A DNA stretch of 63,985 bases, filler included, from Octopus bimaculoides (lineage: Eukaryota), in assembly GCF_001194135.2 (NCBI RefSeq). It is 7 parts of 4 records of this genome, joined end to end, with 100 filler letters (N's around TTAATTAATTAA, not from the genome) between each part and the next. Parts side by side here need not be neighbours in the genome. Positions count along the whole stretch, not along the records: positions 5,859 to 12,501 come from NC_068985.1; positions 12,602 to 36,478 come from NC_068984.1; positions 36,579 to 46,606 come from NC_068988.1; positions 46,707 to 51,308 come from NC_068984.1; positions 51,409 to 62,868 come from NC_068983.1; 2 more parts are not named here. The stretch is one strand, 5' to 3'. Position 1 is the stretch's first letter. Each line of letters starts with the position of its first letter. The notes below the pieces were generated by a model. The model was not told the origin of the DNA. It saw only the letters and a program-made list of their open reading frames with translations, and did no database searches. A program made the position numbers and the translations under genes. Positions 6,799 through 52,908 of the stretch are shown here, one piece after another.

Positions 6799-8773
6799 CT
6801 CTCTCTCTCTCTCTCTCTCTCTCTNNNNNNNNNNNNNNNNNNNNNNNNNNNNNNNNNNNNNNNNNNNNNNNNNNNNNNNNNNNNNNNNNNNNNNNNNNNN
6901 NNNNNNNNNNNNNNNNNNNNNNNNNNNNNNNNNNNNNNNNNNNNNNNNNNNNNNNNNNNNNNNNNNNNNNNNNNNNNNNNNNNNNNNNNNNNNNNNNNNN
7001 NNNNNNNNNNNNNNNNNNNNNNNNNNNNNNNNNNNNNNNNNNNNNNNNNNNNNNNNNNNNNNNNNNNNNNNNNNNNNNNNNNNNNNNNNNNNNNNNNNNN
7101 NNNNNNNNNNNNNNNNNNNNNNNNNNNNNNNNNNNNNNNNNNNNNNNNNNNNNNNNNNNNNNNNNNNNNNNNNNNNNNNNNNNNNNNNNNNNNNNNNNNN
7201 NNNNNNNNNNNNNNNNNNNNNNNNNNNNNNNNNNNNNNNNNNNNNNNNNNNNNNNNNNNNNNNNNNNNNNNNNNNNNNNNNNNNNNNTATATATATATAT
7301 ATATATATATTATATACCTATATATATACATATGCACATATGTACATATATGTATATGTACATATACATATCTATATATCTATACTCACACACACACATA
7401 CATACATATATATATATACATATGTATGTATGTACGTATGTATAGATGGTTGTATGCTTATAAATCCATATATATCTGCATGTGACTATGTTTCTCTACC
7501 TACAAGACACATTTTACTAGATGTGCTGGATCGCATTCTCATTGCTGTAACTTAGAACAATGTGACACACTATGACAAATATATGAGCATCACCTGCATC
7601 ACTACTGTATTATAGGAAATCTTTACTCCACTTTTAGTTATAATTAAGGAGATTAATTAATTTGCATCCGTATCATTTAATTTCATCGTTATGAGGCAAT
7701 TTTTATTTGTGCTTTTTTCTTATCCTCTATAGGATATTATACTCACAAGGCACTTTGGGCCATACAAAATCACTTACGCCTCAGTGAGAGTCAATTAGGT
7801 TGGACTTGCGGCGAAGCGCGCATATATATATTGATATATCTATCTGTCTGTCTGTCTGTGCGTTTATCATATCAAAAGTTGACAGTCTATTTTATCGTAT
7901 TGTGGTCTACTATTTCAGATTGCTGAGAACTGGGGAACAAAATAACTTCTCAAATGTTGATGAAACAAGTATCAGACCTCTGAAACTAGTGCATTGAGTT
8001 TTCCATCAGATCACATTTGTGCTATGTAAACTATGGTTTATATACTCTGAAACACTTAGATTGTAGCATTTGTTGTTTCGTACACACACATACACGCGCA
8101 CGCATATATATACATATATATACATATNNNNNNNNNNNNNNNNNNNNNNNNNNNNNNNNNNNNNNNNNNNNNNNNNNNNNNNNNNNNNNNNNNNNNNNNN
8201 NNNNNNNNNNNNNNNNNNNNNNNNNNNNNNNNNNNNNNNNNNNNNNNNNNNNNNNNNNNNNNNNNNNNNNNNNNNNNNNNNNNNNNNNNNNNNNNNNNNN
8301 NNNNNNNNNNNNNNNNNNNNNNNNNNNNNNNNNNNNNNNNNNNNNNNNNNNNNNNNNNNNNNNNNNNNNNNNNNNNNNNNNNNNNNNNNNNNNNNNNNNN
8401 NNNNNNNNNNNNNNNNNNNNNNNNNNNNNNNNNNNNNNNNNNNNNNNNNNNNNNNNNNNNNNNNNNNNNNNNNNNNNNNNNNNNNNNNNNNNNNNNNNNN
8501 NNNNNNNNNNNNNNNNNNNNNNNNNNNNNNNNNNNNNNNNNNNNNNNNNNNNNNNNNNNNNNNNNNNNNNNNNNNNNNNNNNNNNNNNNNNNNNNNNNNN
8601 NNNNNNNNNNNNNNNNNNNNNNNNNNNNNNNNNNNNNNNNNNNNNNNNNNNNNNNNNNNNNNNNNNNNNNNNNNNNNNNNNNNNNNNNNNNNNNNNNNNN
8701 NNNNNNNNNNNNNNNNNNNNNNNNNNNNNNNNNNNNNNNNNNNNNNNNNNNNNNNNNNNNNNNNNNNNNNNNN

Positions 8774-8804
<31 letters not shown>

Positions 8805-9289
8805 TTAACTATATTATTTGCCACCTAAATGTGGCTGACCCTTAAGGGTCGATGCTACTGTTGCTTGTAGTCCCAGGAAGACATCTCTTCCAGCTGGCTA
8901 TTAACACCCTATCTGTGCTCTATCAGTATTTGCAAAGGCAAATCATCATTCCCATCTCCAGCCTGACGTGATACGCGTCTGCTAGAGATGGCAGTCGTAC
9001 GCTTCTGCTCACGATATATCACAAACTAGCTACTGCCATCACTAGCAGATGCTGTGTCTAGTACTGAAAAGAGGCAGAAATAGCCAGAAACCAGGCTGGT
9101 CTGCTGATCCCAGCGCTAGAAGGTGGTAGGGGTTTGCTCCCCTGCTAGCAGTATATCAGATATAGTTAAGACTGGTATGTTGCCTATTACCTGAGCGTTC
9201 GGTCCTGTTAGCATTTGGTAACTCTCTCAGTCAAATTGCCATAATGGTCTCCGTTGCTGGTTTGATTTTTTTATATAGTCAATAAATAC

Positions 9290-9789
9290 AATGCCTTTTG
9301 TATCCCCAAAACTAAGACCATCAACTTGCTTGGCATTCTTTGGAGCAGGTGAGAAGGGGTATTTTCACTGCATGGATTGTATTTTTGCCTATTCGATTTA
9401 TAATGAAACGCCTGTCATCTATCAGCATGTGGTGAAAACGATTAATGTTTTCCTCGGTGATGTTAGTGGCAAGGCATCCAGACCTTGGGTTATCTTCATG
9501 AATCTCCTTTCTCCTCCTAGATTCAGCTGCCCTCTTTGACCCTGTTGATAAAGCTGGAGCTTCATCCCATAGCATAGAAGCCATATCAACATGAATGTCG
9601 TTGGGGGCCAGAACCGTCTTTTTTAGGTACTTGATAACAACACGATGCCACATTTCCTTCTTTTAGCTAGTAACCTCGAAAAAAACAATCCAGCTATTAA
9701 TAAAATTCGAAATTAATGCATGCAAGTTTTGACAGCTCTACCATCACTCCTTCACGGTTAGTCTATGAAGTTTTCAGCCCATCCCGTGT
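9290..9789 (-). mobile_element. Mariner-like transposon relic (5' end and N-terminal HTH)
   Basis: ORF 9321-9653 reads HRVVIKYL...EDNPRSG...TEENINRFHHMLIDDRR, matching the mariner transposase HTH region. TIR-like TACACGGGATGGGCTGAAAACTTC on the minus strand at about 9789. Confidence 0.75.
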
Positions 9790-9831
9790 ATATATTTATT
9801 TTTATATATACAATAAATTACGCACACACAT

Positions 9832-9833
<2 letters not shown>

Positions 9834-9928
<95 letters not shown>
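9834..9928. repeat. (TG)n microsatellite
   Basis: Direct inspection. Confidence 0.97.
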
Positions 9929-9930
<2 letters not shown>

Positions 9931-10366
9931 ATACACATATAAATCGTGTGTGTATTTTATTGAATATATAAACATAGATATTCACTCTGATACATTACTA
10001 GTTGCATGCAAGAAAGAAGTAGTTTTTACTCAGAATAGAAAATTAGATCGAATAAAAAAAGAATAATTACGAAAAGAATTTTGAGGATATAACATCAAAT
10101 AAACGCGTGATATCTATTGAGTGGGAGAAATGATCACAAGAATGAAAATCTTTTATTATCAAGCAGCATACCATTGATAAACTTATGGCATCTTTGAAAG
10201 ACCACATGACATCTGTCTTACAAGGATGACCAATTACTAGATGTCAGCAGGTAATTGATACGAATATTTCCATCTTGTTGCAGGTATTTATGATTCAGTC
10301 ACAGATCTTGCACGCATATAGAAATAAAGATATGTTGTGCGAAATAGATTATATGCATATAAAAAC

Positions 10367-11900: not shown

Positions 11901-12601
11901 TCGTTATCGATAATGAGAGGAAACCTTATCTTAATCAAGTACGTTAATTAAGACTAAAGAAGCACTTGTTTCATTCCCATCTTAAAATATGACAGGTATT
12001 TCTTCCACACCTTAATATGTATGTATATATATATGTGTGTGTGTATGTGTGTGTGTGTGTGTGTGTGTGTTTGTGTGTGTGTGAGTGTGTGGGTCTGTGT
12101 GTGTGTGTGTGCGCGTGTGTATGAGTGTGCGTTTGTGTGTGAGCGTGTGTGTATGTGAGTGTGTGTGTACACATATATTATATATATAATGTATTTGTAT
12201 GTACACACAGTCATATATATACGTATATATCTATATTTATATATATATCTGAGTATGCATATACCCGCACACACATATATACATACATATATATATATAA
12301 AATATATAGTTTTAGGGAAAATAACCAATTTTCAAGAACTCATCGATGAAAATCCACTATCACATATAGAAAAATTAATAATTAAAAGCACAATAAATGA
12401 GCATAATATAAAGTAAAGTAAATATTATAAGATAAATATAATAAAAAGATTACACGTGTTTCATAACCAATTTTCAAATAGAAAATAAATTTAAATCGAT
12501 TNNNNNNNNNNNNNNNNNNNNNNNNNNNNNNNNNNNNNNNNNNNNTTAATTAATTAANNNNNNNNNNNNNNNNNNNNNNNNNNNNNNNNNNNNNNNNNNN
12601 N

Positions 12602-14320
12602 TGATGACCTTGCGCTAATGGCTGAGTCACTATCAGAACTAGAGGAGAAGTTTCAGGTGTGGAAGCAAGGACTAGAATCGAAAGGCCTTAGAGTCAACCC
12701 AGCTAAAACCAAAGTCCTAATAAGTAGGAAGTTAGACAAAACACAAACCCCTTCAGGTAGATAGCCCTGCTCGATCTGTAGAAAAGGCGTAGGTAGAAAC
12801 TCCATAAGTTGTACCCAGTGTAAGCTAAGGACACATAAGAGGTGCAGCAATATCAAAGGAAGGCTAACTAGCAAGATAGTTTTTGTATGTGGCAGATGCT
12901 CAGGAGCAATAAACACTGAAAACTCGCAGAAAACAACCTTTGCCACATTCCAGGGAGAAAAACTAGAGGTAGTTGATAGCTGCTGCTATCTAGGTGACCA
13001 AGTTAGTAGTGGGGGAGGGTGCGCTGAAAGTGTAGCTGCTAGAATAAGAATAGCCTGGGCAAAGTTCAGAGAGCTCTTACCTCTGCTGGTAACAACGGGC
13101 CTCTCGCTCAGAGTAAAAGGCAGACTTTATGACACTTGTGTACGAACCGCCATGCTACATGGCAGTGAAACTTGGGCTGTGACTGCTGAGGACATGCGTA
13201 ATCTCACAAGAAACGAAGCCAGTATGCTCCAATGGATGTGTAATGTCAGTGTGCATACTCGATTAAGTACCTTGAGAGAAAAGTTAGACCTAAGAAGCAT
13301 CAGTTGTGGTGTGCAAGAGAGACGATTGCGCTGGTATGGTCATGTGGCAAGAATGGATGAGGATAGCTGTGTGATAAAGTGCCACACTCTAGTGGTTGAG
13401 GGAACCTGTGGAAGAGATAGACCCAAGAAGACCTGGGATGAGGTGGTGAAGCACGACCATTGAACTTTAGGCCTCACCGAGGCAATGACTAGTGACTGGG
13501 ACCTTTGGAAAAATGCATTACGTGAGAAGACCCGGCAAGCCAAGTGAGAGCATAATCTGTGGCCTCTGCCAGAAGTGTAGCCAGCTCACTTATTCGTTTC
13601 TTTACTTCATTTGGACACTAAACTCTGCTTGTGAAGACCTGTTGAGGCAAGTGAATTGAAATTGAAATCAAACCAAATTCGACGACTGGCACCCATGCCA
13701 ACCTCTCCTTCATTGGACACTAAGCTCTGCTNNNNNNNNNNGGCACCCATGCCAACCTCTCCTTCATTGGACACTAAGCTCTGCTTGCGAAGACCTGTTG
13801 GGGCAAGTGAAATCGAAATTGTAATTGAACCATATTCGATGACTGGCACATGTGCCAGTGGGGCACTATCATCACTGTCCAAGCATGATCATTGCCAGAG
13901 CAGCTGTCTGGCTTCCGTGCTAGTGGCACGTAAATAACACCATTTGAGCATGATCGTTACCAGCGTCGCCTTACTGGCACTTGTGCCGGTGGCATGTTAG
14001 AAAATCATTCAAGCGAGGTCGTTGCCAGTGCCACTGGACTGGCTCCTGTGTAGGTGGCATGTAAAAAACAGCATTTTGAGCGTGGCCACTGCCAGTACCG
14101 TGTGACTGGCCCTCGTGCCGGTTGCACGTAAAAGCACACACTACACTCCTGGAGTGGTTGGCGTTAGGAAGGGCGTCCAGCTGTAGAAACTCTGCCAGAT
14201 CAGATTGGAGTCTGGTGCAGCCTTCTGGCTTGCCAGTCCTCAGTCAAATTGTCCAACCCATGCTAGCATGGAAAGCAGACGTTAAACGACGACGACGACG
14301 ACGACGACGATGATGATGAT
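12602..14320 (+). mobile_element. RTE-clade LINE, 3' part (RT end, PHD-like finger, C-terminus, 3' UTR, GAT tail); inactive
   Basis: ADDLALMAES...GLRVNPAKTK...YLGD...LHGSETWAV...RRLRWYGHVARM. In-frame stop present. Tail GGCGTTAGGAAGGGC...CCCATGCTAGCATGGAAAGCAGACGTTAAACGACGACGATGAT. Confidence 0.92.
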
Positions 14321-15161: not shown

Positions 15162-16663
15162 CTGTAAAATATTTTGTGGTCACTGATAAGAGATGAAGTT
15201 AATATTGATTGATTGTTTTTGTAAGGTGGTGAGCTGGAAGAATTGTTAGCATGCTGGGCAAAATGCTGAGGTTGACTTTGCTTACACTGGGTACATCTTA
15301 TAGAGTTTCTACCTATGCCTTTTCTACAGATTGAGCAGGACTATCTACCTTAATTCTCCAATTATAGAACTGCAAACGCCTATTATCATTTACTGTGGAC
15401 ACTCCTTAATTATTTGATGAACTGGTGACTGCTAATATTCTTGATTAAGGATGTTCCTTAATTCTTTTTCTCTGATGTCAAAATAGTTAGGTTACATGGA
15501 AATCGTTACTCAATAACATGTGCTCCACATGCTCAGCTATTCTAGAAACAACTGTAAGAGGCTTTATGCATTACTTTATAATACGTATTTACTGTAACTA
15601 TTCTGTATTATGCTTAAATACTCTAAGGTGATATCACATGTTTTGCTTGTTGGTTCTCTGTTTCTAAGGTATATATGGTGTACGTGTGTAAGCGCGCGCG
15701 CGTGTGTGTGTGTGTGTGTGTGTACTTATATAATAATCTTCATTTAATGTCCATGGGTTGAGCAGTTTTACAGGATGCAATGAACCCAAGAGCTGTATCA
15801 TGCTCCAGTGTCTGCTTTGGCCTGGTTTCTGTGGCTGGATGCTCTTTGTAATACCAACCATATTACAGAATATACTGGGTACTTTTTTCATGTTACCAGC
15901 ATTAGTGAGGTCACCCATGGACTCTGAGGAGCTAACTTTATGCTAGGAGATGAGTGAAGAGGGGGATAAAGTATAAGAGGAGGGAGCTGGAAGAGAACAA
16001 GTGTTTTGTTGTAGAGCAGATGTTTGATAATGTGAGATGGTAGAATAATAATGATAATCAGTAGATAGGATAAAGACAACAGAGATGACATGATGTTGGG
16101 AAGGTTGTATGAATGGCTGGAGAAGAGAAAGACACATGTAATGTGTTAAGAGAGTGAGACATATGTTGTTTGGTGGGAGAGATAATTTGGTGGCTCAGTG
16201 AAGGTGGGGGATTAATGAAAATGGGTGAAGAGAACAGTACTGATGGATGAAGAATGGATAACAAGTGAAATGGTTCTGGGTAGTATAAAAAGTGGCATCA
16301 AGGAAGAACCGCAGTTAGAGAGGTGATGGGTGGTGGTGATTGTCTTCAGAGGGGAAGGAAATTGGGTGAAGGGACCAGCTGTGAATACACACACACACAC
16401 ACCACTCATACCAATGCACATATATATACATAACAGATAATCTTTTAGTTTCATTAACCAAATTTACTCACAAGGCTTTTGGTTAACATGGGGCTAGAGT
16501 AGAAGACACTTGCCAAAGAACCATGCATGTTTTCTATCATGTAATTCCTAAGCTACTTTGGTAAGGTTACCAGACACAAGAAATGATGTATCAATGAAGG
16601 TGGATAAGATTTCAGAGCAATTCTATTAATTTTTACATTTTTGTGCTCACTAACATAATAGTC

Positions 16664-16882
16664 CATACTAAGCTTCACTGTGGAGTATATCCATAAGTCT
16701 TGAACTGTCACTGCATTCATAAATTAATTAAGCTTACTAGATACATGAGCCTGTCTCACATATCTATTAAATTCAATAAATTTATGAAAACAGTTATGGA
16801 TATACTCCAATAAATATACTTCAATAGACATATTTCAATGAATATACTTCAATGGATTAGCTACAAAGTGAAGCTTAGTATG
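16664..16882. repeat. Foldback / MITE-like nested inverted repeat
   Basis: CATACTAAGCTTCACT (16664) pairs with AGTGAAGCTTAGTATG (16867); GGAGTATATCCATAA (16682) pairs with TTATGGATATACTCC (16794). Confidence 0.75.
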
Positions 16883-17621
16883 AAAAAATAGACACTATTG
16901 AAAGGTCAGTAATTTATATTACATATTTATATTAATTAAACATTGTTGTCCTTTTGGCATTCATTATTACATTCTGGCATGGACTGATAAATCCATAATA
17001 AAAGTATATCTCCCTTTGTTTCTTAATTCTCCTTTCTCTTGACTTTATGGTACAACCTTATTAGATCTCACAAAGCTAATTTCTCCAATAGTTGCATTGC
17101 TTTGCTTTCACTGTTAATGAACAATTCCTTTTTTTCCCCCACTAAATTCATTTCATATAATTCATTTAAATTATATGACCATACTTGTAAAATTGCTCCT
17201 TACATATACAATGGACAATACCTTTGATAAGCTACAATTTCTCAATCCACTTTGTGGGAAGCACAACAGACTACAGTATTGTTCATTGAAGAGAAAACCA
17301 TTAGATAATCCATTTTCATTTACTGCTGATACTCTACCTCATGATTCCTTTAATTGAGCATTTATATAAACCTAATTCAATACAGAAGTAGAAATCCTTT
17401 GTTGTCAACAGAGATATCTCCTTCTCTGAAGTATTAAAATAGCTGAAGTTGTAGTAATATTACCATAAATCTTTATTCAATGCATAGTTAATCCCACAGT
17501 GGTTATCTTAAATAACATTCCTTCCTCTGTAAGAAATTTCCAACACCAATTAAAGAAAGTAGCTTGGACATTATTGTGTTGTTTACTGTTTCACTGATTA
17601 CCTATAATATCATATCATATC

Positions 17622-17653
<32 letters not shown>

Positions 17654-18124
17654 GTGTATGTACTGTGGGCTTCTTTCAGTTTCTGCCTAGCAAATTCTCT
17701 CAAAATGCTTTGCCCTACCCAGGGATATAGTAGAAGACTTTTGCCAGAAATGCCATGCAGTGGGACTGGACCCAGAATCATGTGGTTCGGGAGCAAACTT
17801 ACAAATATAAATATATATATGAGAAAGTGGATAAAGAAAAGAAAAAGGCAATCTAAACATTTAGTAGGAGTTATGAGTATTATTATTATTTAAAACAGTT
17901 TTATTTGGTTACGTGCGACTTATAGTTTCATGGACTTCTAACAGAAACCTGTTTCATTCAGGTTTAGATTACCAAATGGAGGGACACAGGAGGTTCATGA
18001 TGGCTACTGGAAATTAGGCTGCTATTTGTCAAAGCAGGTTACATGATACTGTTAGAGGTTAGATTGGTGATTCAGTAACACCAGTTTCATTTAGCAAAGG
18101 GAATTTCCTGGGCTGCGTGACTAG

Positions 18125-18511
18125 CAAACATGGGCACCAAACCATTAATCCATCAATTGTTAATTAACGAAGTTCATGTTTTCATTAGGTTAACTTTGGA
18201 AATCATTATCAGACTAATCAACTTCCATTACATTTAACTTCTATTAACTTAAGTCAACTTGAGTTAACTTCAATTGAATTGAAGTTAACGGATTTTATAG
18301 TTTTGGCACTTTTTAAAGGTGTTTTTAGGTGGTTTTAGAGCAAAAAGTGATTTTTGTTTTTTTCTATAATAAAAGTTAATGTTAACAGTTTATCAATAAC
18401 TTCTGTTGCATTAGGAAATAATCAACTGATTACCAGTTATTGAAGTTAACTTTTGGTTAAGGAATTTATGATTAACAAAGTTAACTTTTCGATTAACGGT
18501 GCCCACGTTTG
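18125..18511. mobile_element. hAT-type non-autonomous DNA transposon (MITE)
   Basis: 14-bp TIR CAAAC(A/G)TGGGCACC; 8-bp flanks GTGACTAG / GTGACTGG (7 of 8 match, consistent with a TSD). Confidence 0.8.
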
Positions 18512-18568
18512 GTGACTGGACAGGAAGCTGGTGGTATTTAGGTGTTCAGGCGCTGACAGGAGCAAGGT

Positions 18569-18601
<33 letters not shown>

Positions 18602-18734
18602 TGTATGCCAGATGTATGAATGCATAGATGTGGGTGTGTTATTGGACCAATAACATACCCACATCTGTTAGAAGCCCTTTAAGTCGCATAGAGCCAAACC
18701 AAACTGTTTTAAATAAGGTGTGTGTATGTGCATG

Positions 18735-18777
<43 letters not shown>

Positions 18778-19031
18778 TCATCATCATCATCATCATCGTT
18801 TAACGTCCGCTTTCCATGCTAGCATGGGTTGGACNNNNNNNNNNTATTATATAAGTAAATCCAAGAATTAATTCATATGTACTGAACATAAAGCAAAGAA
18901 TTTTGGATGTTATCTAGCTATTATATCTCAATTATTCCTGTTTAGAAATTCTATCTTTACTTATTCTTGTGTCTTTCTTGATAACTAAATATCAATTATA
19001 GCTTCTTTAGTTAGTTTCTCTCATTACTTAG

Positions 19032-19140
19032 ATATACAGAGAGTGGAGCTGCATAAAGGACAAGCAAAATGTAAGATTTATGATTCTTCTGCTCATGCTC
19101 AGTACCCTCCAGGCCCAGCAGTAACTATTTTTTACAAACT
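19032..19140 (+). CDS. Candidate internal exon (unidentified)
   Basis: Acceptor TTTCTCTCATTACTTAG and donor CT|GTGAGT. 109 nt open in one frame: IQRVELHKGQAKCKIYDSSAHAQYPPGPAVTIFYK. Confidence 0.4.
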
Positions 19141-19412
19141 GTGAGTAGCCTATCCCCAGGATAAAAGTATTAGGACAGCATTGGAAGGCAAGCTATGCAT
19201 TAAATATGATGCAATTTGCCTTGATTACCAAACTGAATTTCAGAGAGGGTGATAAATATATAGAGACTATGACATAGATAAATACCTGGAGAGTATGGTG
19301 TAGGTGTGTTGATAAAATTGCTAGAAGAACAGTTTCAGAGAAGTATAATTTTGTATGACTTGAATTCCCCAAGATATTTTTAATAACACACACATGCGCA
19401 CAAGATATTTTT

Positions 19413-19464
<52 letters not shown>

Positions 19465-20280: not shown

Positions 20281-20505
20281 ATATAGAAGATATGACAAGC
20301 AAGAAGTATTAATTCTAACAATAAACCTAAAAATTTCATATTTCTTCACATCTGGCTTATTGCTATACATGACTATGATCACATCTCATATAAAGCATTA
20401 GAGAACCACTACTTATTATCACAGCTAGAGATTAATGTATTACTTTTTAACTGGTTCAAGCCAGTTGGTTGTGATCATACTGGAGTATCTTCAGTATTTC
20501 TTTTT

Positions 20506-23292: not shown

Positions 23293-24212
23293 AAAATGAT
23301 GAGTAAAATTAGTGTTAATAATCTGAAACATTGGAGGTAAATAGAAAGCAGCCAGAAAATCTTGAAGAGTAGTGTTTGACATGACTCCAGTGAATGAGAG
23401 AAAAGTGAAGACACAACATGAGGTTGATCAAGGAATTGAAGGTTTTTACTAGGAAAATGTTTATTCTTTAAGTTATGGTCTATGATGTGATCATCATTGT
23501 CATTTTAATATCCACATTCCCATTCCTGCGACCTGGCAGAAACGTTAGCATTATGGGTGAAATGCTTAGTAGTATTTCATCTGCTTTTACAATCTGAGTT
23601 CAAATTATGTCGAGGTCAACTTTGCCTTTCAACTTTTCGGGGTCAATAAATTAAGTACCAGTTGCATACTGGGGTCAATATAATTGACTGACTCCCTCCC
23701 CCAAAATTTTGGGCCTTGTGCCTAGAGTAGAAAAGATGAGGTTCATTTAGGTGGATTTTTACAACTGGTTGCTTTTCATGTTGTCAACTCTAATCTGTTT
23801 CCAAGCAAGGTAATATTTCCTTACATTTTCATGGAATACTGGAAATGAACAATGCTGCTTGTATGATGTTGATGCTCATTTACAACTATTACCTGATGTC
23901 AAGATAAAGAAAGACAAACACACATGCAGACACACACTCATGTGAGAAAACACATATACATACATAAATGTAGGTACATAAACATGCACATGCACACACA
24001 CACACATGTATGCATATATGTAAGAGTGTATATATGTTTATGTCTGTCTGTCTATCAATTAAATTATATTTCCTGTGTATGTATATATATATATATATAT
24101 ATATATACCGGAGTAAGCACATAAAATGTGCAACAAGGTGGAAAAAAGAGTACTCAAATACCAGAGGTAGAGTAATATGCTTTATTTAAAAATAGCAGAA
24201 ATATAACAAAAG

Positions 24213-24252
24213 ACTGTTACTCGGAGTTTCACGTTCCCATTCATCAGACAGT
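24213..24252 (-). ncRNA. Type I minimal hammerhead ribozyme motif
   Basis: ACUGU CUGAUGA AUG-GGAA-CGU GAA ACUCCGAGU A ACAGU. Stem I is perfect, the core is intact and the cleavage triplet is GUA. Confidence 0.75.
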
Positions 24253-24266
24253 TTTGTTCTAACAAA

Positions 24267-24306
24267 ACTGTCTGATGAACGGGAACGTGAAACTCCGAGT
24301 AACAAT
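24267..24306 (+). ncRNA. Type I minimal hammerhead ribozyme motif
   Basis: ACUGU CUGAUGA ACG-GGAA-CGU GAA ACUCCGAGU A ACAAU. The core is intact and stem I has one mismatch. Confidence 0.75.
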
Positions 24307-24370
24307 CTTTTGTTATATTTCTGCTGCTTTTAAATAATGTGTANNNNNNNNNNNNNNNNNNNNNNNNNNN

Positions 24371-24404
<34 letters not shown>

Positions 24405-26793: not shown

Positions 26794-27344
26794 CTGTCAC
26801 AAACTGATAATGGCCAGTCAGGCTCCTCTTTTTATTGATTTTTCAGTATAAGTTTCAAGGAAAGAAATGAATATTAAATGCTTTCATTAATTCTCAACTA
26901 TAATATTATTTTCAGGATTGTCAACTATAACATTACTTTCAGTATCATTATTTTTTATCCTAAGTGGAAACTAAATGGCATTGTTTAAAAAAAAGATTGA
27001 ACAAAATAAATGTTTACAGAAACCAACTTACCTGTTGAATTAAATTTTGTTTGGGTTACCATTTTTCCGAAAAGATTCTTGATTTCAGTTGACTTAGATA
27101 TTTGAGAAAACTTATATGGTGACGTTCCTACAAAGATATTTAATCAATTTAATCAATATATACATATATATATTTGTAATATTTACACACACATATATAT
27201 TTGTAATATTTCACACACACACACACACACACACATTTTTTGAAACACATGGTTATAGAATTGTTTTAATGTTTTCCCCTTTAACATTTTTAAACCTTGT
27301 AGATCTCAGCACAACTACATTTAATATTAGTTTTCCTAGTAATA

Positions 27345-27445
27345 GCCCATGGGCATATGGTGTAGTGGTTAAGAGCATGGGCTACTAACCCTAAGATTCC
27401 AAGTTCGATTCCAAGCAGTGACCTGAATAATAATAATAATAATAA
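27345..27445 (+). mobile_element. tRNA-like SINE head followed by (AAT)n
   Basis: A-box TGGTGTAGTGG, B-box AGTTCGATTCC, then AATAATAAT. Confidence 0.75.
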
Positions 27446-28337: not shown

Positions 28338-28382
28338 TGGAAAATACCTTAGGAATGAGACCCAGGTTCAAAATTCCCCTAG

Positions 28383-28428
28383 GACACCTGATGAAGGCTG
28401 GAGAGTACATCAGCCGAAACATTGTGTT
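28383..28428 (+). ncRNA. Type I minimal hammerhead ribozyme-like motif
   Basis: GACAC CUGAUGA A GGCUG-loop-CAGCC GAA ACAU U GUGUU. Stems I and II pair; stem III ACAT could be a CpG-decayed ACGT palindrome. Confidence 0.65.
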
Positions 28429-29964
28429 AACAACAAACAAGATGAAGACAAATATCTGTCAAATGTAAATAATGTCCTAGTAAGATCACTCATACAAAAA
28501 TTAATCAAAGTGGGATATAAACGTACCACTCCCTACATGACACTTCACAACAACAGAATATATCCAAAGCTAGTGTCAGTGACATTGTACCTCCAAATGG
28601 ATGTATCTCATAGGCATTAGAAATACTGATTGGAGAAAATATCAAAAGCAGTCTCTATAAGAAGCAACAGCTAGGGTGCTGTAACAAATTATTTGAACCT
28701 TTTGTTCCCATATTTTTGTCGAAATGCATTGCCTTAATTTCAATTATTTTTTGAAAATAATGAAGTTCATAAAGTAACTTTGTCATAATTAAGCTGGTGT
28801 TTGGAATATAAATTAACATGAAATTTTGATGGAAGGTTTTAATTTCAAGTACCTTGAAATAGGACATTTGCATCAAAGAGAAAAGAATGATCTCAGATGT
28901 ATTGGTATAAAAATGGTTAAACAGCAATAATCCATGTATGATCTACAGTTTCATTATTCAACTATGACATTACATATTAGTCAACTGTAAACATTGAATA
29001 TTTTCAAATATAGCTGTTTTATTTGTAAAAGAAATGTGGTTATTAAAAAATATATACATAGTAACTGTGAGGAAAGGAAAACATCATGTTTTGAGCTCAG
29101 GTCCTTTATCAAAGAAGATAAAAGAGAGAGTTCAATGCACTATTATTCTGGGAGTTAACTCCAAGATAGCATTACACTGAACTCTCTTCTCTTCTCTTCC
29201 GTTCCATAATACAACACTTGAACTTGTAATGTATCATTTCCTTACCTCACATTAACTCTATTTATTTGAACTACCGTGTTTACTTTAGATTACTTGTTGT
29301 CAATGCCAACTCACACCAGTTCTAAATCTTACTTTGTTTTATTAGCTATTAATTTTGGTAAACCTTCAAATAGGCCCCACCTTTCATTCATACTGGTTGT
29401 GCTTTGAGGGTGTAGCTCAGTGCAAAAATGTTTCAATGCCAAACAATATATTTCCTTTTGTTTTTGAGGGCTTGCCAAAAGAGAACTTAAACCATCATGG
29501 TTGTGTTTGGCAATGTTCTTCCTTAAAGATTACAGAATTCTTATAAAAAGGAATGGCTGAAGTTATTTTTTTTTTTTGTAAACAGAAATAGCATTTCATA
29601 ATTTCTAAAAGCATTTGCTAGCAGTGTCATTGGAAAGAAGTAATTGAAAGCAAACATCATCTCAATTGTTGAGTGGAATTACAGGAAGAACATTAATTCC
29701 ATGTATATAATGTTTGTAAGTATACACACAGGCACAGGCACACACACACACACACACACACATACACGAACAAGAATAGGCATGGCTGTTGGTTAAGAAG
29801 TTCACTTCACATCCACATGGCTTTGTGTTCAGTTCCTCTGTATTATACCTTGAGCAAGTATCATCTTTATAGCCCCAGGCTGAATAAAGTCTTGAGTGTG
29901 GATTTGGTAGATGGAATCTGAAAGAAGACTATTGTGTGTGTGTGTGTGTGTGTTTTTGTGTGTT

Positions 29965-31240: not shown

Positions 31241-32164
31241 AATCCTTCTCATCATAATCCCCATCATTATCACCCTCATTTTAACATCTTTTTCATGCTT
31301 GTATGAATCAAAAGTATGTTGGAGAACAGTTTTCTTCTGACTGATGCCCTTCCTGGTGCCAACACCCACCAATTTCCAAGGAAGGTAATACTGTCCAGTC
31401 TGTCAAACAACGAACACCGTAGACATGTTTTACACAGAGAACTGGAAAAAAATTACACTGTTGAATGAGCCTTTTGAAGGGATATATGAACCCACTCATG
31501 CAAACGCCCACGCACTTCATGCCCAGAATGTCAAAGGCCCTTTTACCTTTTCCTTTTTCTTTTCAAGCATGAAACTAATTACAACTTCATAAAAACTTAT
31601 CACTCTTGTGTTTTTCTTGTTTTTGTTCATTCATCATATACATACATACATACATACATATATCTTTATATATATATATAAATATATAGTATTAGGGAAA
31701 AGAACCAAGGTTTATGAAATCATCGATGAAAAACCACTGTCACATATAGAAAAAATTTATAATTAAAAGTACAATAAATAAGTATAATATAATACAAAGT
31801 AAATATCATAATATCCCTAATATTATTTTATATATATATATATATATATCTATATATATATATATATATATTCTTTCTGTTGAAGAGCGTAGCTCGAAAC
31901 CTTTAAGACTTTCCGTATTCCCGAGCGTCATACTGATACATCCTTTTGTTGTTTACACCACCTGTCCTTGTCTGTTGTTGTTTTTTCGTACATTCTCCCA
32001 TATATATATATATGCATATATATACATACATACATACATACGTACACACACACATATATATATCCTTTTACACACAAGTATTCTTTCTAAGTTAAGGTAG
32101 ATTATATATTATATAACCCCTTGTTATCAGCACGTGGTAGTAAAAAATGTATAGTAAATATAGA

Positions 32165-32540: not shown

Positions 32541-32750
32541 GATACAGATGATCTTATATATATATATATNNNNNNNNNNNNNNNNNNNNNNNNNNNNNNN
32601 NNNNNNNNNNNNNNNNNNNNNNNNNNNNNNNNNNNNNNNNNNNNNNNNNNNNNNNNNNNNNNNNNNNNNNNNNNNNNNNNNNNNNNNNNNNNNNNNNNNN
32701 NNNNNNNNNNNNNNNNNNNNNNNNNNNNNNNNNNNATTTTTTTTTGTCTT

Positions 32751-32811
32751 AATAACTGACAAGATGCCGGAGCAGATTTCCACCCCGACATCTGAAACTC
32801 AGAGTTTTATT
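32751..32811 (+). ncRNA. Degenerate type I hammerhead-like motif within a dispersed repeat (32745-32910)
   Basis: AAUAA CUGACAA GAUGCCGG..CCGACAUC U GAA ACUCAGAGU U UUAUU. Stem I and a long stem II pair; the core is a variant. Confidence 0.55.
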
Positions 32812-35800
32812 ATGGCAAACGAATAATTGTCACATATTATATTAGAGATAAATTCCTCTATTTACATAATATTGAGGTCTCATTCATTCTTTTGTTGTCA
32901 TACTATTACTATTAATATATATATATATATATATATATGAGTCAGAGATGGAGAGGCATGGGAGAGAGAGGACAAGAGAAAATTTGCTTGTGTGTACATG
33001 TGTGAGAGTCTAAAGTTAGATGTTAGTTTGAATCAATGAAGTCAGCATATCTTGGAGTGAAGAGTTTCCTCTAAATCTCATTCCTGGCTTTATATATGTT
33101 CTACAGAAATGACAATGCATCTTTCATTTTGCCATTTATCAAGGTTAATGTAATTTTCTGCTACCAAACCAAAAACATCAACCAATTCTGACAAGATTAA
33201 TCTCACATACATATATTTTTAAGCACGTTCATGTTTTTTTTTTATATTATTGTTGTTGCGTTTCAGTCTTCAATATTGATAACTTTTCAAAAATTGAAAG
33301 AGAAAATGTTTTCTGAATGAAGCCTGGCATATGCTGGTAACTTTACCATTAAAAGAAACTACAATATATTTGTACATGAAATAATAGGATGTGACAGAAT
33401 TGGAAAGGAAGCAGAATATAAATGAACAGAAAATATGAGCTAAATATTTAACACAATTCTAAATAAGGACAGAACTCTCCAGACTTGCTAACCCTATCCC
33501 ATGTTCACTCTAAACATTTTACTGTTCTTCTTTAACATTATCTCTTACCTCTACCCACTCAGTCTTTCACCAAAGGCTCCACACACAAGCCTCCATATAC
33601 ATTTTCACTTTTTCAAAAAATTCTTTTCTGCTCATTCATCACTTCTAATAACTTAAAGTTAACAATTCAAGCAAAATATCAACTGCAATGGGTCCCACCT
33701 AACCATCTTACTCTTTTGTTCTGTTACAACTTTACAATATATGGACAAAATAGTACTTAATATATAATAATGGATGTACTAATATTGAATAGCTAACAAT
33801 GAAAAACAACAACAATAAAATCTAACAATAACTTACAATAGTTATTAAAGATATTATAGGTAGTATAATAATATAGATATTATTATACTTATGATAAATT
33901 ATTGGATAAATTGGCTGAAGTAATAGATTAATTGCTCCTTATATTATTAGTGAAGATCTTTACTATTTCAATTTCATGTTATATAAGATGCAGGCATCGA
34001 TGTGAGGTTCAGAAGTTCTCTTCTTAACCACATGGCACTTTGGGCAAGCATATTCTATTAAAACTTCAGGCCATTCAAAGCCAGTGAGTGAACCTGGAAG
34101 ATGGAAATTGAAAGAAGCCCATCACATATGTATATCTGTGTGTGCACTCATGTGTGCATTTGTGTCGCCTTGTTCATTTCCACTTGGATATTCTTGCTCA
34201 GTTACCCTGAAATTGTTTTTTCATGTATCAAATTTGATGCTTAATATGGAATGACTTCTGGGCTGGTGGATCAACAGACTGGACATAATGTGTTAATAAG
34301 TAAAATAGTAAGTTAACTAAAAGCTAAAAGTTTAATCTTATCTATTTCTTTATGATCTCTATATAGTGTGATGGATGTGTTTTAAGATAGTTAATTTTTT
34401 TCCTGAAAAAATTCTGTAAGCATGCATCTCAGTTTATAAGATGGAAGTCAATAGAAAAATAGGTTTTGTATAATAGAATTCTATATTACAGCAAATCTTT
34501 CGGGAATGCAATTATTCTATAATGTGAGGGATAGCACTATATCTCTCTATATATATATATATATATATATCACAATGTGTATAGGTGTATACATCACAGT
34601 GTATATTTGTGTATACATCATAGTACACACACACACACATCACAGTCAATTTATAGATATACATCACAGTGTATATATGCATACATACTACAGTGCAAAT
34701 ATGTGAAAGCATGTGTGTCTTACAGTGGTCATAGGGCTAGCATCAAGCCAAGTCTATAATGCAAGTTCAGTTCCCTTGATGAGCAATTTCATCCTGTTTC
34801 AAACATTTACATTCTCACAGTAGACTGGGAGTCTGGAAGGAGATCAGTTACTTCCTGCTCACTTACCCTCACTCACTAATAAACCTTTAATGCTGACCCA
34901 GCACAGAGATACAGAATATTTTCTTTTAAGTACATCATAGTGTATTTATGAGATTAATGAAGATCTTGTGGGATCTGTTATTATGCATCACAAAATCTAG
35001 GATTAGCAAGAGACTCAAGGTGCAGTAAGATGGTTAGTGTATGTCAGAAATTAATTGTGATAAACTAGACTAGGAACAAGATTGAACAGTGTAATTAATT
35101 GATAGGAGCTAACATAAGGTTAGAGAGGCAATTGACAAAGTTAAATCAAGATATATCTGATTTCATCTTAGACACTGAAGAATTAGTGAAGTATTAAGGT
35201 AATGATAAATTTGGATGGCTGTTTGATAGATGTGTCCAATTCATTCTTGCATGAAAATATTGATATTAAAGGGATTTAGAATGATTATTATTCTTACTAG
35301 TTTAATTTCAAAGGGTAGTGGATTGGCAGAATCATTTGAATGTTGGAAAATGTTTTACTATATTTCTTCCAACTCTTTAGGTTCTGAGTTCAAATTTTAT
35401 CAAGATCAATTTTGCTTTTCATCCTTCTGGTATCAATAAAATAAAGTACCTATTAAGTACTAGGATTGAATTTATTGATTAATCCACTCTCTCACCCCAG
35501 AAACATGTTATCCTGTACGTATGTTAGAAACAATTATTACTTTTATTATGAAATTATTAGAAATCAAATTGTGGAGTTGAAAATGTTAAAATTGAAATAT
35601 GTAACTGTTATAATAGTTTATGTTATAAAAATATGTCTGTATAAAGGTTATAGTATTTTATGTAATAAAAAACATTATAATATTTTATGGGATAAAAATA
35701 TGTATGTAACAATTTTTTATGTAATAAGAATATGTGTATTGGTGCCCCAGTATGACTGCAGATTTCAAGCTGAAATTGACTAAAGAGTTTTATGCCTATA

Positions 35801-47879: not shown

Positions 47880-48045
47880 TAAGCAGCTACACTCTGCATG
47901 TTTTAGCTTCGTTACTATAATAACTGTTCGGATACTTATTGATCAAACCTCGTATATATATATTCTAAACAAAACTGTCCAACGAACGGGAACGTGAAAC
48001 TCTGAGTAACAGTTTTTGTGATATTTTTACTGCTTTGTAATAAAG
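47880..48045 (+). mobile_element. Probable Penelope-like 3' end with a core-mutated hammerhead, same family as 24182-24337
   Basis: ACTGT CCAACGA ACG-GGAA-CGT GAA ACTCTGAGT A ACAGT at 47974-48013. The downstream sequence matches the 24306-24337 arm. Confidence 0.65.
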
Positions 48046-48144
48046 TATATATATNNNNNNNNNNNNNNNNNNNNNNNNNNNNNNNNNNNNNNNNNNNNNN
48101 NNNNNNNTATATATATATATATATATGTGGTGGTTGTCTACTTC

Positions 48145-48950: not shown

Positions 48951-50266
48951 TCACGGAATTTCCTGTCTGAATCTTGGGCGAAAATTTCGAATCAAATCTT
49001 GATTTCACTTTAATGGAAAAACATTAACTTTAGCACTAATTTATAATAAAAGCACACAGATTACGTAGCCTTGTAACTCGATGGATTTTCGCGCGAAAAT
49101 AGTAAAATCGCACCAAATTGACGATTCTGGTCGGCACTCTTGTGTAGGGTGTGTGTGTGTGTGTGTGTTGATAGCTACATAGATAAATACTACACACAAT
49201 CTAAAAATAGTTGTTTAAAGCATTTTGCTTTACAATCTTCATTCAACATATTGACCGTCTTCAGACTTTACCATTAGCATGGCACTTTGAAACCTGTTAT
49301 CATCCTTGTGTAAATATATTTCCATAAGGTGTATTTTTAAAGTAATTATTAGTTTGACATTTTGACACAAGACTAACAATTTCGAGGAAAAAATATGCTC
49401 AAATGGTACTTATTTTATCGACCCGGAAAGGTAAAATCTACTTCGACAGAATTTGAAGTCTGACCGTAAAGTTAGACGAAGTGTCTACAAGCATTTTTGC
49501 CCGGCGTGCTAACGAATCTGTCAGTTTGCCGCCTTCGTTATAATAACAACTACGAATAAACTTGTTGTAGCATGAAATTCGTGTGATCGAAGTTTTCTAC
49601 AATTACTATTTTGATTTCGTGTTTATATCAAATCTTATGCCGTTTGGTACACAATATTGCTCATTCTCTGAGTTTTGTTTCAAAATTAGTCATACTTAGA
49701 GGTATTGAGTTAATTCACAGGTGATTCATAGGTAAGACATATTCATAGGTAAGACATATTCCGTCGCTCAGGGCGATATATCGTTGCCATCCTGTTTAGA
49801 AATGTCCTATTAATTGCGCTATCGTTGGTTTTAGTATTTCGATTTTGTAAACAGTAATCTTACTCTATTGTAATTACTCCAGATTAATAACTGTATTCCA
49901 TTTACCCTTATTCCTCAGCAACTGTTCATGTGTACATAGTCATGTCTTCCGGTTAGTGACGAAGGGAAGAAACTACGACTGTAATATCTCTACCCTAAAA
50001 CTAAACGAAAATAAACAATACGAAGGCCTGAGTCTCTTTTTGAAAACTGATCAACTTGTTATTATTTCTTCGGTTGTAATACTTTCTTGATCCATTTGTT
50101 TATCGCAATTATGTACAAAAAACAAACGATGAAAAACAGGATTATTTGCAGAATGAATAAACATATTTTGTAAACTCGTACGAATTAGAAATAAAACAAC
50201 AACGACCCCTGATCAAACAAGTACATCAGCTGGACATCACCGTTTAGGTTCACACTAATTTTAAAT

Positions 50267-50522
50267 ATGGTTATTATTAAAGACTCCAAGCGAAGATTTT
50301 ATTTCTCTGGTATTTTCTTTACGCTTATGGCATTGCTTTTTATGATAATTGGATTTTCAACTTCATATTGGGTTAACCAAAGTGGCGAGAAACCAAGCCG
50401 TATTGGACTTTGGGAGGTTTGCTATCGAGAATACACCCCATTAGGAGCTAAAAAGATATTCACTGGATGCTGGTGGTTGTATTCTGATAGTCTTTCATCC
50501 GTGAAGGAATATGTTTTACCTT
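50267..50522 (+). CDS. First coding exon of a claudin/PMP22-family tetraspan protein (invertebrate claudin, Megatrachea/pickel-like)
   Basis: ATG at 50267; TM1 FYFSGIFFTLMALLFMIIGFST; extracellular signature W...GLWEVC...GCWW; phase-1 donor T|GTAAGT at 50523. Confidence 0.88.
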
Positions 50523-51638
50523 GTAAGTAAACTTTAATGTATTAAATTCTGTTTTCATAACTTCACTGTAGATAATCCTCATAAATTTAGAATGATTTTT
50601 CTTTGTTTCATGTATTGAACATTTCCACTTCACCATTACATTTTATACGTTTAATTATTGTATTAGCAATATTAATAATTAGAAATTATTAATATGATTG
50701 GTTGTAGCTAATTAGCTCATAATGAAACTGGTATAAATGACAGATAATGATGCAGTCTATCAATCATTTAACGAAAACAAACATCAACTATTTCTTTCCG
50801 GTGCACGGCTGCCTTCCTGAACCAATTCGTTGTACAGATTTACTCCAAACTTTGACAACAATGTGACTGTTAAAGAGATGGCAAAATAAACAAAATTAAA
50901 ACCTTCCGTACCACATCAGAAAATGAAGTCAACATTGGAAGATAAGGACTTTCTCTTCCAGCAGGCTGTTGAGGGACGTTGTGTTCTTTAGAAAACGTTA
51001 TCAAGGCGTGTAGAGGAATTGTGCATTAAGAATGGATAAAAGAGTCGACCCTTCAACTCTATCAGGTGGTAGGAGTTGAGAAAGAGCATATGTCTGGATC
51101 CGAAGGCAGTCGAGGTTTTGAGTACCGCGATCTCACCTGAGTGGTCATTCCCTCGATTTGGAGTCTTTATTTACATGATGAATACGTTTTTAAATTTTTA
51201 TATTGTATATAATGTGTACATGCACAGGAGTAGTGATAAAGCTGTATGTATGTATGTATGTATGTATATATGCCATTATTCAGTTTGTTTCAAGATTTCT
51301 TGCCAACANNNNNNNNNNNNNNNNNNNNNNNNNNNNNNNNNNNNNNNNNNNNTTAATTAATTAANNNNNNNNNNNNNNNNNNNNNNNNNNNNNNNNNNNN
51401 NNNNNNNNTACTATAGGCATATTCGTTTTACAGAATATGGCTAGGAACGAGGAAGATGTGTTTGAATTTTTGGAAATAAGGCTCTAAATAGAGCTATTTC
51501 CGATTTGAAAAATATATGTTCACGAAGTATTTTGTGTTATACACAACTTATACAAAATTTTAAAACAAAATAGGTCTTTTAAGAGGTGAAACATGCAACT
51601 TACATGGAAGCCGATGTGTCTACCGTCCGTCCATGATG

Positions 51639-51639
<1 letters not shown>

Positions 51640-51672
<33 letters not shown>

Positions 51673-51749
51673 TTATACGACAAACAGACAGACATACAGA
51701 CAGGCAGACAGGCAGACAGCCAAACAAATAGTCAGGCAGACAGACAGGC

Positions 51750-51784
<35 letters not shown>

Positions 51785-51830
51785 AAGATAGATGGATAGA
51801 TAGATAGATAGATACATACATACATACATA
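51640..51830. repeat. (GATA)n/(GACA)n compound microsatellite
   Basis: Direct inspection. Confidence 0.95.
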
Positions 51831-52847
51831 GATATGATGCAAGAAGATAACTAGAGAAAAGTGAAACAGTAAATTATAATAATTCGAAATTTGAAAGTAA
51901 GACGTAGAGTCAGCATTCATATATTAAGAGGTCGATAAACATCCGAAGTATTTGCAAATGATATGATCGCGCGAGCGCATGTGTGTATATGTCAGCGCGA
52001 AATCCACTCAAGTTTTGGATTGATCCTAAACGTGTTCAAGATACCATGTAGAAGGATTTTTATGACAGTAAAATGAAGATTTTAACTACAGTAATACCTG
52101 CTTTCTATTCTCTATTTAATAATGAAGCTAATAAACGTTGGCTGGTTGGTTGGCTGGTTGGTTTGTTGGGTGGTTAAGTTCTTCATTCGTTTTTATATAT
52201 ATTATGAAGAATGAAACTAAAATAGCGATGTAGAAACAGTTGATAAAATAGGTGCAGCATAAAAGCTCGTGCGACGTTTGACCACAGACATTGAGTAAAT
52301 AAACATTACCCACTCGCACAGACACAGAGGGAAAAACAGGAGGTGATGAAGGTAAAGCAAAAGAAGAACGAGCATATGATAGAGTACTTAGGGGAATTGT
52401 TATTTATCGGATTTTAGGGTCATAGATATCATCTTTTGAAAATTAGTATTCACTTTATAAATTTGTATAAGCATTAAGTAATTTTACAAAAGATAAATAA
52501 TAACTATTTAGGGCATGTCATATTTCCTGATATCTCCCACTGTGTACCACGTATGCTTCCAGAGTTATGTCATAGTATAGAGAGGTAATACAAGAATAGG
52601 CGTGGATGTGTGATAAGACGCTTTCTTCCCAAGTACATGTCCCCGGGTTAAATCCCTCTGTGGGCGCATATGTCAACTACTATAACCTCTGGCCGACCAA
52701 ACCCTTGTGAGTAAATTTGGTAGACAGAAGATTAAAGAAACTTCCTGTATATATATATTAATGATAATAGTATGACAACAAATGAATGAATGAGACATCG
52801 ATATTATGTAAAGAGGAATTTATATGTGACAATTATTCGGCTGCCAT

Positions 52848-52908
52848 AATAAAACTCCGAGTTTCGGATGTCGGGGCGCAAATCTGCTCCGGCATCTAGT
52901 CAGTTATT
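52848..52908 (-). ncRNA. Type I hammerhead-like motif, same family as 32751
   Basis: AAUAA CUGACUA GAUGCCGG..CCGACAUC C GAA ACUCGGAGU U UUAUU. Confidence 0.55.

What the first reader, a model, noticed from the sequence alone, without database searches (positions are those of the whole stretch)
7953..52908. Window-wide: dense population of dimer-type hammerhead motifs from several families
Six reasonably clear HHR motifs (24213, 24267, 28383, 32751, 47974, 52848) fall into three families, and weak remnants lie at 7953, about 12450-12480 (-, ACACGTGT) and 31872. All have a self-complementary stem III. If this density is typical, the genome would carry a very large number of such motifs (extrapolation). 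That would be a largely unexamined layer of self-cleaving, dimerising RNA in introns, interacting with editing and with CpG decay of the core and stem III.
Basis: partly seen in the sequence, partly recalled or inferred. Interest (0 to 1): 0.75.

Follow-up and report, generated by a model that had tools for sequence, protein, structure and literature searches.

The report
Penelope retroelement tails carrying minimal hammerheads
The motifs are real but are mostly decayed tail ends of four families of Penelope-type jumping genes, which are already known to scatter thousands of such small self-cutting-RNA motifs through animal genomes; the one unusual point is a recently active family in which a normally fixed core letter (A6) is U, a change predicted to weaken cutting, which is untested.

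Summary
Seven of the nine sites are real hammerhead-family copies; 7953 and 12450 are not. They are 5'-truncated 3' ends (pLTRs) of four Penelope-like element (PLE) families, each traced to an RT/GIY-YIG ORF elsewhere in the genome: one Penelope/Poseidon-type, two Hydra-type, one Neptune/Nematis-type. Only two keep an intact core, and they are one fold-back insertion whose arms pair with each other. An evenly spaced 0.5-Mb genome sample gives about 35,000 intact motifs (16,000-67,000), far above shuffles but well below the roughly 220,000 implied by six per window. Dense minimal dimer-type hammerheads in PLEs are published (PMC4209133, PMC8557442). I found no sign of a host-functional cleaving layer: no read ends at the cut site (weak test), no extra conservation, intron status not shown. 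CpG decay is real and passive. The 'weak remnant' at 31872 is the most interesting item: a family of more than 3,000 copies with U at core position 6 in about 95%, fixed in a young burst, while 20 of 21 motifs beside related ORFs elsewhere have A6. This scan noted PLE hammerheads in other stretches of this genome and A6U families in other genomes before.

The parts
24108..24258 (-). Family B (Hydra-type PLE) 3' end, inverted arm with tail; hammerhead 24213-24252, C3 at 24247, H17 at 24218, core intact, one CpG change in stem II
   Evidence: start of the arm read by eye at the (TA)n border
24259..24342 (+). Family B direct arm; hammerhead 24267-24304, C3 at 24272, H17 at 24301, core intact, stem I cut to 3 bp; pairs with the inverted arm in an about 80-bp hairpin
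   Evidence: -113 and -118 kcal/mol for the two strands
27339..27444 (+). tRNA-like head plus (AAT)n of the family A pLTR, separated from its hammerhead by about 900 bp of inserted LINE-like sequence
   Evidence: 79-89% to L007, L008; RNA reads join 27391 to 28341; A/B-box likeness is by eye only, ARAGORN and Rfam are blank
28338..28475 (+). Family A (Penelope/Poseidon-type PLE) 3' end; hammerhead 28384-28427, C3 at 28388, H17 at 28423; core boxes intact, stem III palindrome lost by CpG decay (ACAU)
31871..32000 (+). Family D (PLE with CX4CxxC linker and CCHH endonuclease) 3' end; hammerhead 31872-31908, core CUGUUGA (U6), C3 at 31877, H17 at 31903; stem III broken in this copy (ACCU)
32736..32918 (+). 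Family C (Hydra-type PLE) 3' end; hammerhead 32750-32812, C3 at 32756, G8 to A by CpG decay, H17 at 32806
47968..48050 (+). Family B 3' end; hammerhead 47971-48016 with a doubly mutated core (CCAACGA), stems intact
52750..52918 (-). Family C 3' end; hammerhead 52847-52909, C3 at 52903, G8 to U, H17 at 52853
52973..53649 (.). Inverted pair (52973-53212 and 53410-53649, 87%) encoding a broken PLE ORF N-terminus (ATG at 53424 on +), directly 5' of the family C hammerhead on the minus strand
   Evidence: likeness to the published Hydra-1_Obim N-terminus judged by eye
7953..7995 (+). Rejected: chance arrangement in single-copy DNA
   Evidence: 1 match, itself
12320..12501 (-). Rejected as hammerhead: 3' part of a young high-copy repeat ending at (TA)n; has GAAA plus a palindrome but no CUGANGA box and no proper stems I and II
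   Evidence: (1402 candidates, 40 scored at 98-100%)

Best explanation
The seven real motifs are 3' ends of four Penelope-like retrotransposon families whose pLTRs carry a minimal type I hammerhead, and they are likely passive, decaying by-products of retrotransposition rather than working ribozymes of the host. Shown: each family lies downstream of a PLE endonuclease or RT-endonuclease ORF in longer copies; copies share a 3' end, differ at the 5' end, sit in (TA)n or (AAT)n, and often carry an inverted upstream copy; stem III is a short palindrome; most window copies are mutated. Inferred from established PLE biology: reverse transcription starts near the pLTR end and usually stops early, so 100-200-nt tails with the hammerhead pile up; template switching makes the fold-backs; the ribozyme, where it cuts at all, does so in the element's own RNP, as a dimer through stem III and probably with help from the element's protein. 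After insertion the copies drift, faster at CpG in CpG-poor (presumably methylated) domains. Family D replaced A6 by U in its master copies and kept transposing, which most simply means that efficient cutting is not needed for its spread.
For: ORF links: A below a GIY-YIG fragment (L007/L036); B below RT-linker-EN in L035 and L014, with an inverted 5' copy in L035; C below linker-EN in L025 and beside an ORF N-terminus in the window; D below the ORF end in 6 of 30 loci anchored on that end, most others running into N gaps, RT 41-64% identical to the 120 listed proteins, nearly all with RVT_1 or HTH_animal. Inverted upstream copy in A 3/10, B 8/12, C 3/12, D 0/30, the layout described in PMC8557442. 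Same ACUCNGAGU stem III in published Hydra hammerheads. Decay: 5 of 7 window copies broken; hammerhead versus tail divergence 10/624 versus 25/1217 in 24 young D copies, P=0.59; CpG transitions 39/131 versus 54/436 in low versus high CpG context, P=1e-5. PMC11167929 passages: an Anolis PLE hammerhead does not cut without protein, is dispensable for insertion in vitro, and leaves no RNA-seq ends; my lay of two RNA runs likewise shows none for D.
Against: No complete pLTR-ORF-pLTR element was recovered for any family; links rest on broken copies. Pfam gave no RT or GIY-YIG hit on the fragments themselves. Clade names for A and D rest on motifs, not on a tree with reference elements. The conservation test has low power (about 2% divergence). 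The RNA test is weak: fragmented, apparently unstranded cDNA, one study, species identity with the window not shown. About 35,000 intact copies leave room for a few that matter to the host. In D, variation among subfamilies falls on N7 and H17, the two positions a hammerhead tolerates, which argues that the fold stayed under some constraint.
Confidence: 0.88

Rival explanations
1. A host-relevant layer: solo intronic hammerheads dimerise in cis or trans, cut pre-mRNA and are tuned by editing and CpG decay.
For: About 18 intact motifs per Mb; family D RNA is present, 2069 and 1805 reads in 12.9 and 12.0 million records; A and D share an ACGU palindrome and B and C share ACUCNGAGU, so cross-family dimers are conceivable (inference); the fold-back is a long dsRNA that ADAR could edit (inference).
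Against: No pile of read ends at the D cut site; the only pile near a window motif is 8 molecules at 28414, 9 nt from the predicted site; no extra conservation; no intact same-strand pair in the window; low or protein-dependent activity in print; intron status unshown.
Confidence: 0.06
2. Non-LTR retrozymes: tandem non-coding units that make circular RNAs.
For: Type I topology; a same-strand second copy within 900 bp in A 1/10 and D 2/30 loci; a 2026 preprint derives animal retrozymes from PLE pLTRs.
Against: Copies are 5'-truncated solos or inverted pairs, not arrays; they continue into PLE ORFs; stems are of the minimal, not canonical, type.
Confidence: 0.04
3. Chance matches in AT-rich repetitive DNA.
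For: True for 7953 and for the 44402 hit.
Against: Shuffles and reversed controls are near zero; 23-fold excess genome-wide.
Confidence: 0.01

Closest known systems
Minimal type I hammerheads (min-HHR) in pLTRs of metazoan PLEs (Cervera and de la Pena 2014, PMC4209133; text parts 1-2 of 4 read, 2 of 3 supplements searched)
   Same: Type I, short stem I, extra base between A9 and 10.1 (families A, B, D), palindromic stem III with 0-1 nt loop, many families per genome, mostly solos, some close pairs on opposite strands, thousands per genome.
   Different: Higher estimated count (about 35,000 intact versus 2,000-9,000 in the genomes named there); family D has U6, a core change not mentioned in the parts read (the variant reported is U3-A8).
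Hydra-clade PLEs and their hammerheads (Craig et al. 2021, PMC8557442; passages, preprint section 11, supplement passages and part 2 of 59 read)
   Same: Families B and C: CxCX5C-like linker, no CCHH in the endonuclease, (TA)n insertion, stem III ACUCNGAGU as in Hydra-2_aMil, Hydra-1/2_aJap, Penelope-3/16_HM.
   Different: Different families from the listed Hydra-1_oBim, whose hammerhead has another sequence; all 34 rows in File S2 have A6.
Poseidon PAc of Anolis, protein-assisted hammerhead (PMC11167929; passages read)
   Same: pLTR hammerhead of a C-terminal-endonuclease PLE; no RNA-seq ends at the cut site.
   Different: Activity measured there, none here; family A has a tRNA-like head and (AAT)n inside its pLTR.
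Natural core variant A6C of phage Bcep176 (PMC3088659 passages; PMC7151607 part 1 of 4)
   Same: Natural change at core position 6 with the rest of the motif kept; low activity in Mg2+, better in Mn2+.
   Different: C not U, a single phage locus, not a dimer-type motif in thousands of retroelement copies.
Metazoan non-LTR retrozymes (PMC7229834 passages; bioRxiv 10.64898/2026.07.22.740005 part 1 of 5)
   Same: Type I hammerheads in thousands of repeats.
   Different: Tandem non-coding units with canonical hammerheads and circRNAs; not seen for these four families.

Membership tests
Minimal type I hammerhead | Core C3 U4 G5 A6 N7 G8 A9 and G12 A13 A14, A15.1-U16.1, H17 (families A, B, C at family level) | tested here: met
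   in the window only 2 of 6 copies of these families keep core and stem III together
Minimal type I hammerhead | A at core position 6 (family D) | tested here: not met
   U in 95 of 100 listed matches, 36 of 39 tail-anchored copies, 24 of 24 young copies; A6 in 51 genome matches. D is filed as a hammerhead-derived variant, not as a canonical member
Minimal type I hammerhead | Stems I and II with stem I open-ended | tested here: met
Minimal type I hammerhead | Palindromic stem III allowing a dimer | tested here: met
   Predicted self-duplex -7.4 to -9.7 kcal/mol (B, C) and -1.7 (intact A, D); lost in the window's A and D copies. Prediction only
Minimal type I hammerhead | Site-specific self-cleavage | not testable with these tools
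   No read-end pile at the D site in two RNA runs; weak test
Rfam hammerhead families | Covariance-model match | tested here: not met
   None at gathering in the window; none among the 150 of 251 rows shown at E<=10; none on an intact A or D copy at E<=10
Penelope-like elements (EN+) | RT plus C-terminal GIY-YIG ORF upstream of the pLTR | tested here: met
   D: RT and EN; B: RT thumb, linker, EN; A and C: EN part only
Penelope-like elements (EN+) | 5' truncation, inverted upstream pLTR copy, optional tail, microsatellite targets | tested here: met
   no inverted copy in 30 D loci
Penelope-like elements (EN+) | Complete pLTR-ORF-pLTR partial tandem | tested here: inconclusive
   Not recovered; N gaps and truncation
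Hydra clade (families B, C) | CxCX5C linker, no CCHH, (TA)n insertion | tested here: met
   L025 C-S-C-X5-(Y), L014 similar but frameshifted, compared by eye with the published alignment; DKT motif region not recovered
Neptune/Nematis (family D) | CX2-5CxxC linker, CCHH endonuclease, DKG motif | tested here: inconclusive
   Linker and CCHH present in L209 and relatives, DKG in relatives; no tree with named references, so the two clades are not told apart
Non-LTR retrozymes | Head-to-tail tandem non-coding units | tested here: not met
   3 of 64 anchored loci have a same-strand second copy within 900 bp; no such array in the window
Non-LTR retrozymes | Circular RNA | not testable with these tools
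   No RNase R data

The most novel reading that the evidence does not exclude
Family D's CUGUNGA core is a working hammerhead variant, rescued by dimer formation, by the element's protein or by Mn2+, which has arisen more than once in PLEs (this genome; one metagenome relative with U3-A8 plus U6; unverified notes on shark genomes) and is invisible to CUGANGA descriptors and Rfam. With an A6 sister family in the same genome it is a natural paired test of whether PLEs need to cut their RNA.
Probability: 0.3. Interest if true: 0.6.

Novelty: new variant of a known kind. Interest (0 to 1): 0.33.

Why it matters
The main result is ordinary: PLE activity leaves tens of thousands of minimal hammerheads in this genome, which Rfam-based annotation misses (235 were reported for the giant squid; Rfam finds none here). 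What PLE hammerheads are for is stated as open in PMC8557442 and PMC11167929. Family D bears on it either way: if U6 is dead, a PLE amplified to thousands of copies, into recent times, without self-cleavage; if it cuts, the hammerhead core is wider than current descriptors and whole families are being missed.

Tried and rejected
Rfam scans found no hammerhead. Repeat finder was swamped by microsatellites and N runs. Pfam gave no RT or GIY-YIG hit on 8 and 4 fragments, and no host exon in the 12602-36478 stretch among 49 filtered ORFs from the window and two neighbouring loci. I first called B and C 'Neptune' from memory and dropped it after reading the Hydra definition. I first thought D ten times commoner than A from exact matches (3298 versus 335); one search shows my A pattern caught a minor variant and A is probably about 11,000 intact copies (84 of 100 listed rows, counted by eye). 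The idea that U6 is clade-wide was rejected: 20 of 21 hits in 80 metagenome loci have A6. The 51 A6 copies within D look like scattered back-mutations in the 6 inspected. Walking 5' from D stalled in a CT-rich tract with N gaps until the ORF end was found. No RNA holder on record was listed by the run search. Editing could not be told from copy differences. Lunse et al. 2017 and Arkhipova et al. 2017 are not held; the former reports many variant PLE hammerheads (recalled; cited in PMC6765202) and may already show U6. Searches for A6U or CUGUNGA with hammerhead found no paper on it by listing; file 1 of the PMC4209133 supplement and figure images could not be seen.
Full report
Setting. The window is a pack of 7 stretches of a 2.34-Gb animal genome, G000. 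An octopus-like origin is an inference from repeat content and earlier notes, not established here. Six stretches have CpG observed/expected 0.66-0.95; 12602-36478 has 0.33 and holds five of the seven real motifs.

Observation. A strict type I descriptor (intact core, stems I and II at least 3 bp, Watson-Crick stem III with loop 0-3, H17) finds two motifs, C3 at 24247 (-) and 24272 (+), against a mean of 0.03 in 200 dinucleotide shuffles. Profiles built from genome copies find seven family copies and nothing in reversed sequence. Family A: 28388, palindrome ACGU decayed to ACAU. Family B: 24247, 24272, and 47979 with core CCAACGA. Family C: 32756 and 52903, both mutated at G8, while 64 of 75 genome matches read CUGACGA. 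Family D: 31877, palindrome broken to ACCU. 7953 is single-copy, without C3 or stem II. 12450-12480 belongs to a young repeat (1402 candidates, 40 scored at 98-100%) with no CUGANGA box. The two intact motifs are the arms of one fold-back insertion in (TA)n; on either strand they are predicted to pair into one hairpin of -113 to -118 kcal/mol, which would prevent both from folding. Rfam sees none of this, even on intact A and D copies.

Density. I took 60 evenly spaced 10-kb stretches (500,516 non-N bases). The descriptor gave 9 canonical hits against a mean of 0.2 in 20 shuffles, all with palindromic stem III, 6 of them from families absent from the window. That scales to about 35,000 intact motifs (95% 16,000-67,000). 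Families A-D gave 17 copies, about 66,000 (39,000-106,000), of which 3 of 17 pass the descriptor. Independently, CUGANGA-N9-21-GAAACGU occurs 13,055 times against 571 for the reversed pattern; 84 of the first 100 rows are family A by eye. Six per window would imply about 220,000, so the window overstates the intact density about 6-fold.

What they are. Family A lies directly below a GIY-YIG fragment without a linker zinc finger in L007/L036, with an inverted 5' duplicate; its pLTR holds a tRNA-like head and (AAT)n in 4 of 10 loci, and in the window the head at 27339-27444 is split from the hammerhead by a LINE-like piece. Family B lies below RT thumb, linker and endonuclease in L035 and L014. 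Family C lies below linker and endonuclease in L025, and in the window next to an inverted pair of ORF N-termini at 52973-53649. B and C fit the Hydra clade: CxCX5C-like linker, no CCHH, (TA)n targets, and published Hydra hammerheads have the same ACUCNGAGU stem III. Family D was walked through a CT-rich 3' UTR to an ORF end; 6 of 30 loci anchored there carry the D motif within 1.5 kb, most others run into gaps. Its ORF has a CX4CxxC linker and CCHH endonuclease, and its RT is 41-64% identical to 120 listed proteins, with named relatives in sharks, gar, a coral and snails. Inverted upstream copies occur in A 3/10, B 8/12, C 3/12, D 0/30; same-strand neighbours in 3 of 64. No complete element was recovered.

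Family D core. 3,298 exact matches with positions 6 and 7 free; 95 of 100 listed have U6, 4 C6, 1 A6, and N7 takes all four bases. 2,232 have U6 with intact ACGU and H17; 51 have A6 (that pattern is three letters longer). Anchored on the tail alone, 36 of 39 copies have U6, 3 C6, none A6, and the variable positions are N7 and H17 (28 anchor copies were set aside, the set is enriched for one young subfamily and includes the window's copy). The young subfamily to which the window copy belongs is about 2% diverged and 24 of 24 have U6, so U6 was in recently active masters. In 80 metagenome loci with related ORFs, 21 motifs were found (0 in reversed sequence), 20 with A6 and one with U3-U4-G5-U6-C7-A8-A9. 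A rough tree of 15 loci and 9 proteins puts D with A6-bearing L265 and L268 (support 0.99) and that other U6 locus elsewhere with weak support: U6 is derived, probably more than once. An A6 family with the same stem II ends and a compensated stem I exists in this genome; its tail is probably homologous to D's (z 1.5-5.1 in 12 pairs against base shuffles). In print I found only A6C as a natural position-6 variant, with low Mg2+ activity; four searches gave no listing on A6U in hammerheads, but Lunse et al. 2017 could not be read.

Function. PMC4209133 reports no cleavage by a single minimal motif and low cleavage by dimers. PMC11167929 reports that an Anolis PLE hammerhead needs the protein, is dispensable for insertion in vitro and leaves no RNA-seq ends. 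Two RNA runs of one study gave 2069 and 1805 reads on a D copy, spanning the predicted cut site with no pile of ends and no other letter at position 6 above 10%; fragmented, apparently unstranded cDNA makes this weak. On 16500-36478 unique sequence had depth 0-3, no splice joint was among the rows shown (245 not shown), and the only end pile near a motif was 9 nt off the site. Hammerhead and tail diverge alike in young D copies (1.6% versus 2.1%, P=0.59, low power). CpG transitions are 30% in CpG-poor surroundings and 12% in CpG-rich ones, with similar non-CpG divergence (25 and 66 copies, P=1e-5; subfamily mix differs between classes): passive decay, consistent with the lesions at 24247, 28388 and 32756.

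Verdict. The family-wide, recently active A6U core is the part worth a bench test. Earlier AI notes of this scan reached the PLE reading on other stretches of this genome and reported A6U families in other genomes; these are leads, not support.

Noticed in passing
window 27339-28475; L001, L003, L007, L008: Family A pLTR contains a tRNA-like head with A/B-box-like segments, then (AAT)n, then the hammerhead, with no T4 run between in the loci read; a Pol III transcript ending at the cut site is conceivable.
   Followed up: partly
window 12320-12501 and about 31700-31830; L137-L144: Young high-copy repeat ending at (TA)n with variable 5' ends and a GAAA-plus-palindrome half core; may be another PLE (Naiad-like) tail. 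A diverged relative seems to lie at 31700-31830.
   Followed up: partly
L272:2791-2826 (metagenome contig): PLE-linked hammerhead with both the U3-A8 swap and U6.
   Followed up: partly
L322-L327 (G000:C1): A6 family with D-like stem II ends and a compensated stem I; likely sister of family D.
   Followed up: partly
window 50213-50530 (+): Probable first coding exon of a claudin/PMP-22-like membrane protein (Pfam Claudin_2, E 0.00095, below cut-off), 2.2 kb downstream of the dead 47979 copy.
   Followed up: no
window 12602-36478: CpG observed/expected 0.33 against about 0.9 in five other stretches; the genome sample is bimodal (0.14-0.93), as expected for methylated gene bodies; no host exon identified.
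   Followed up: partly
window 12659-13463, 21360-22701, 27445-28337: Several fragments of an abundant LINE-like element with a PHD-like finger, highly represented in RNA reads.
   Followed up: no
L084, L086, L111, L113, L132, L135, L051: At least six further hammerhead families with different palindromic stems III outside the window.
   Followed up: no
window 9324-9662 (-): Fragment that reads like a mariner-type transposase N-terminus (by eye; no Pfam hit).
   Followed up: no
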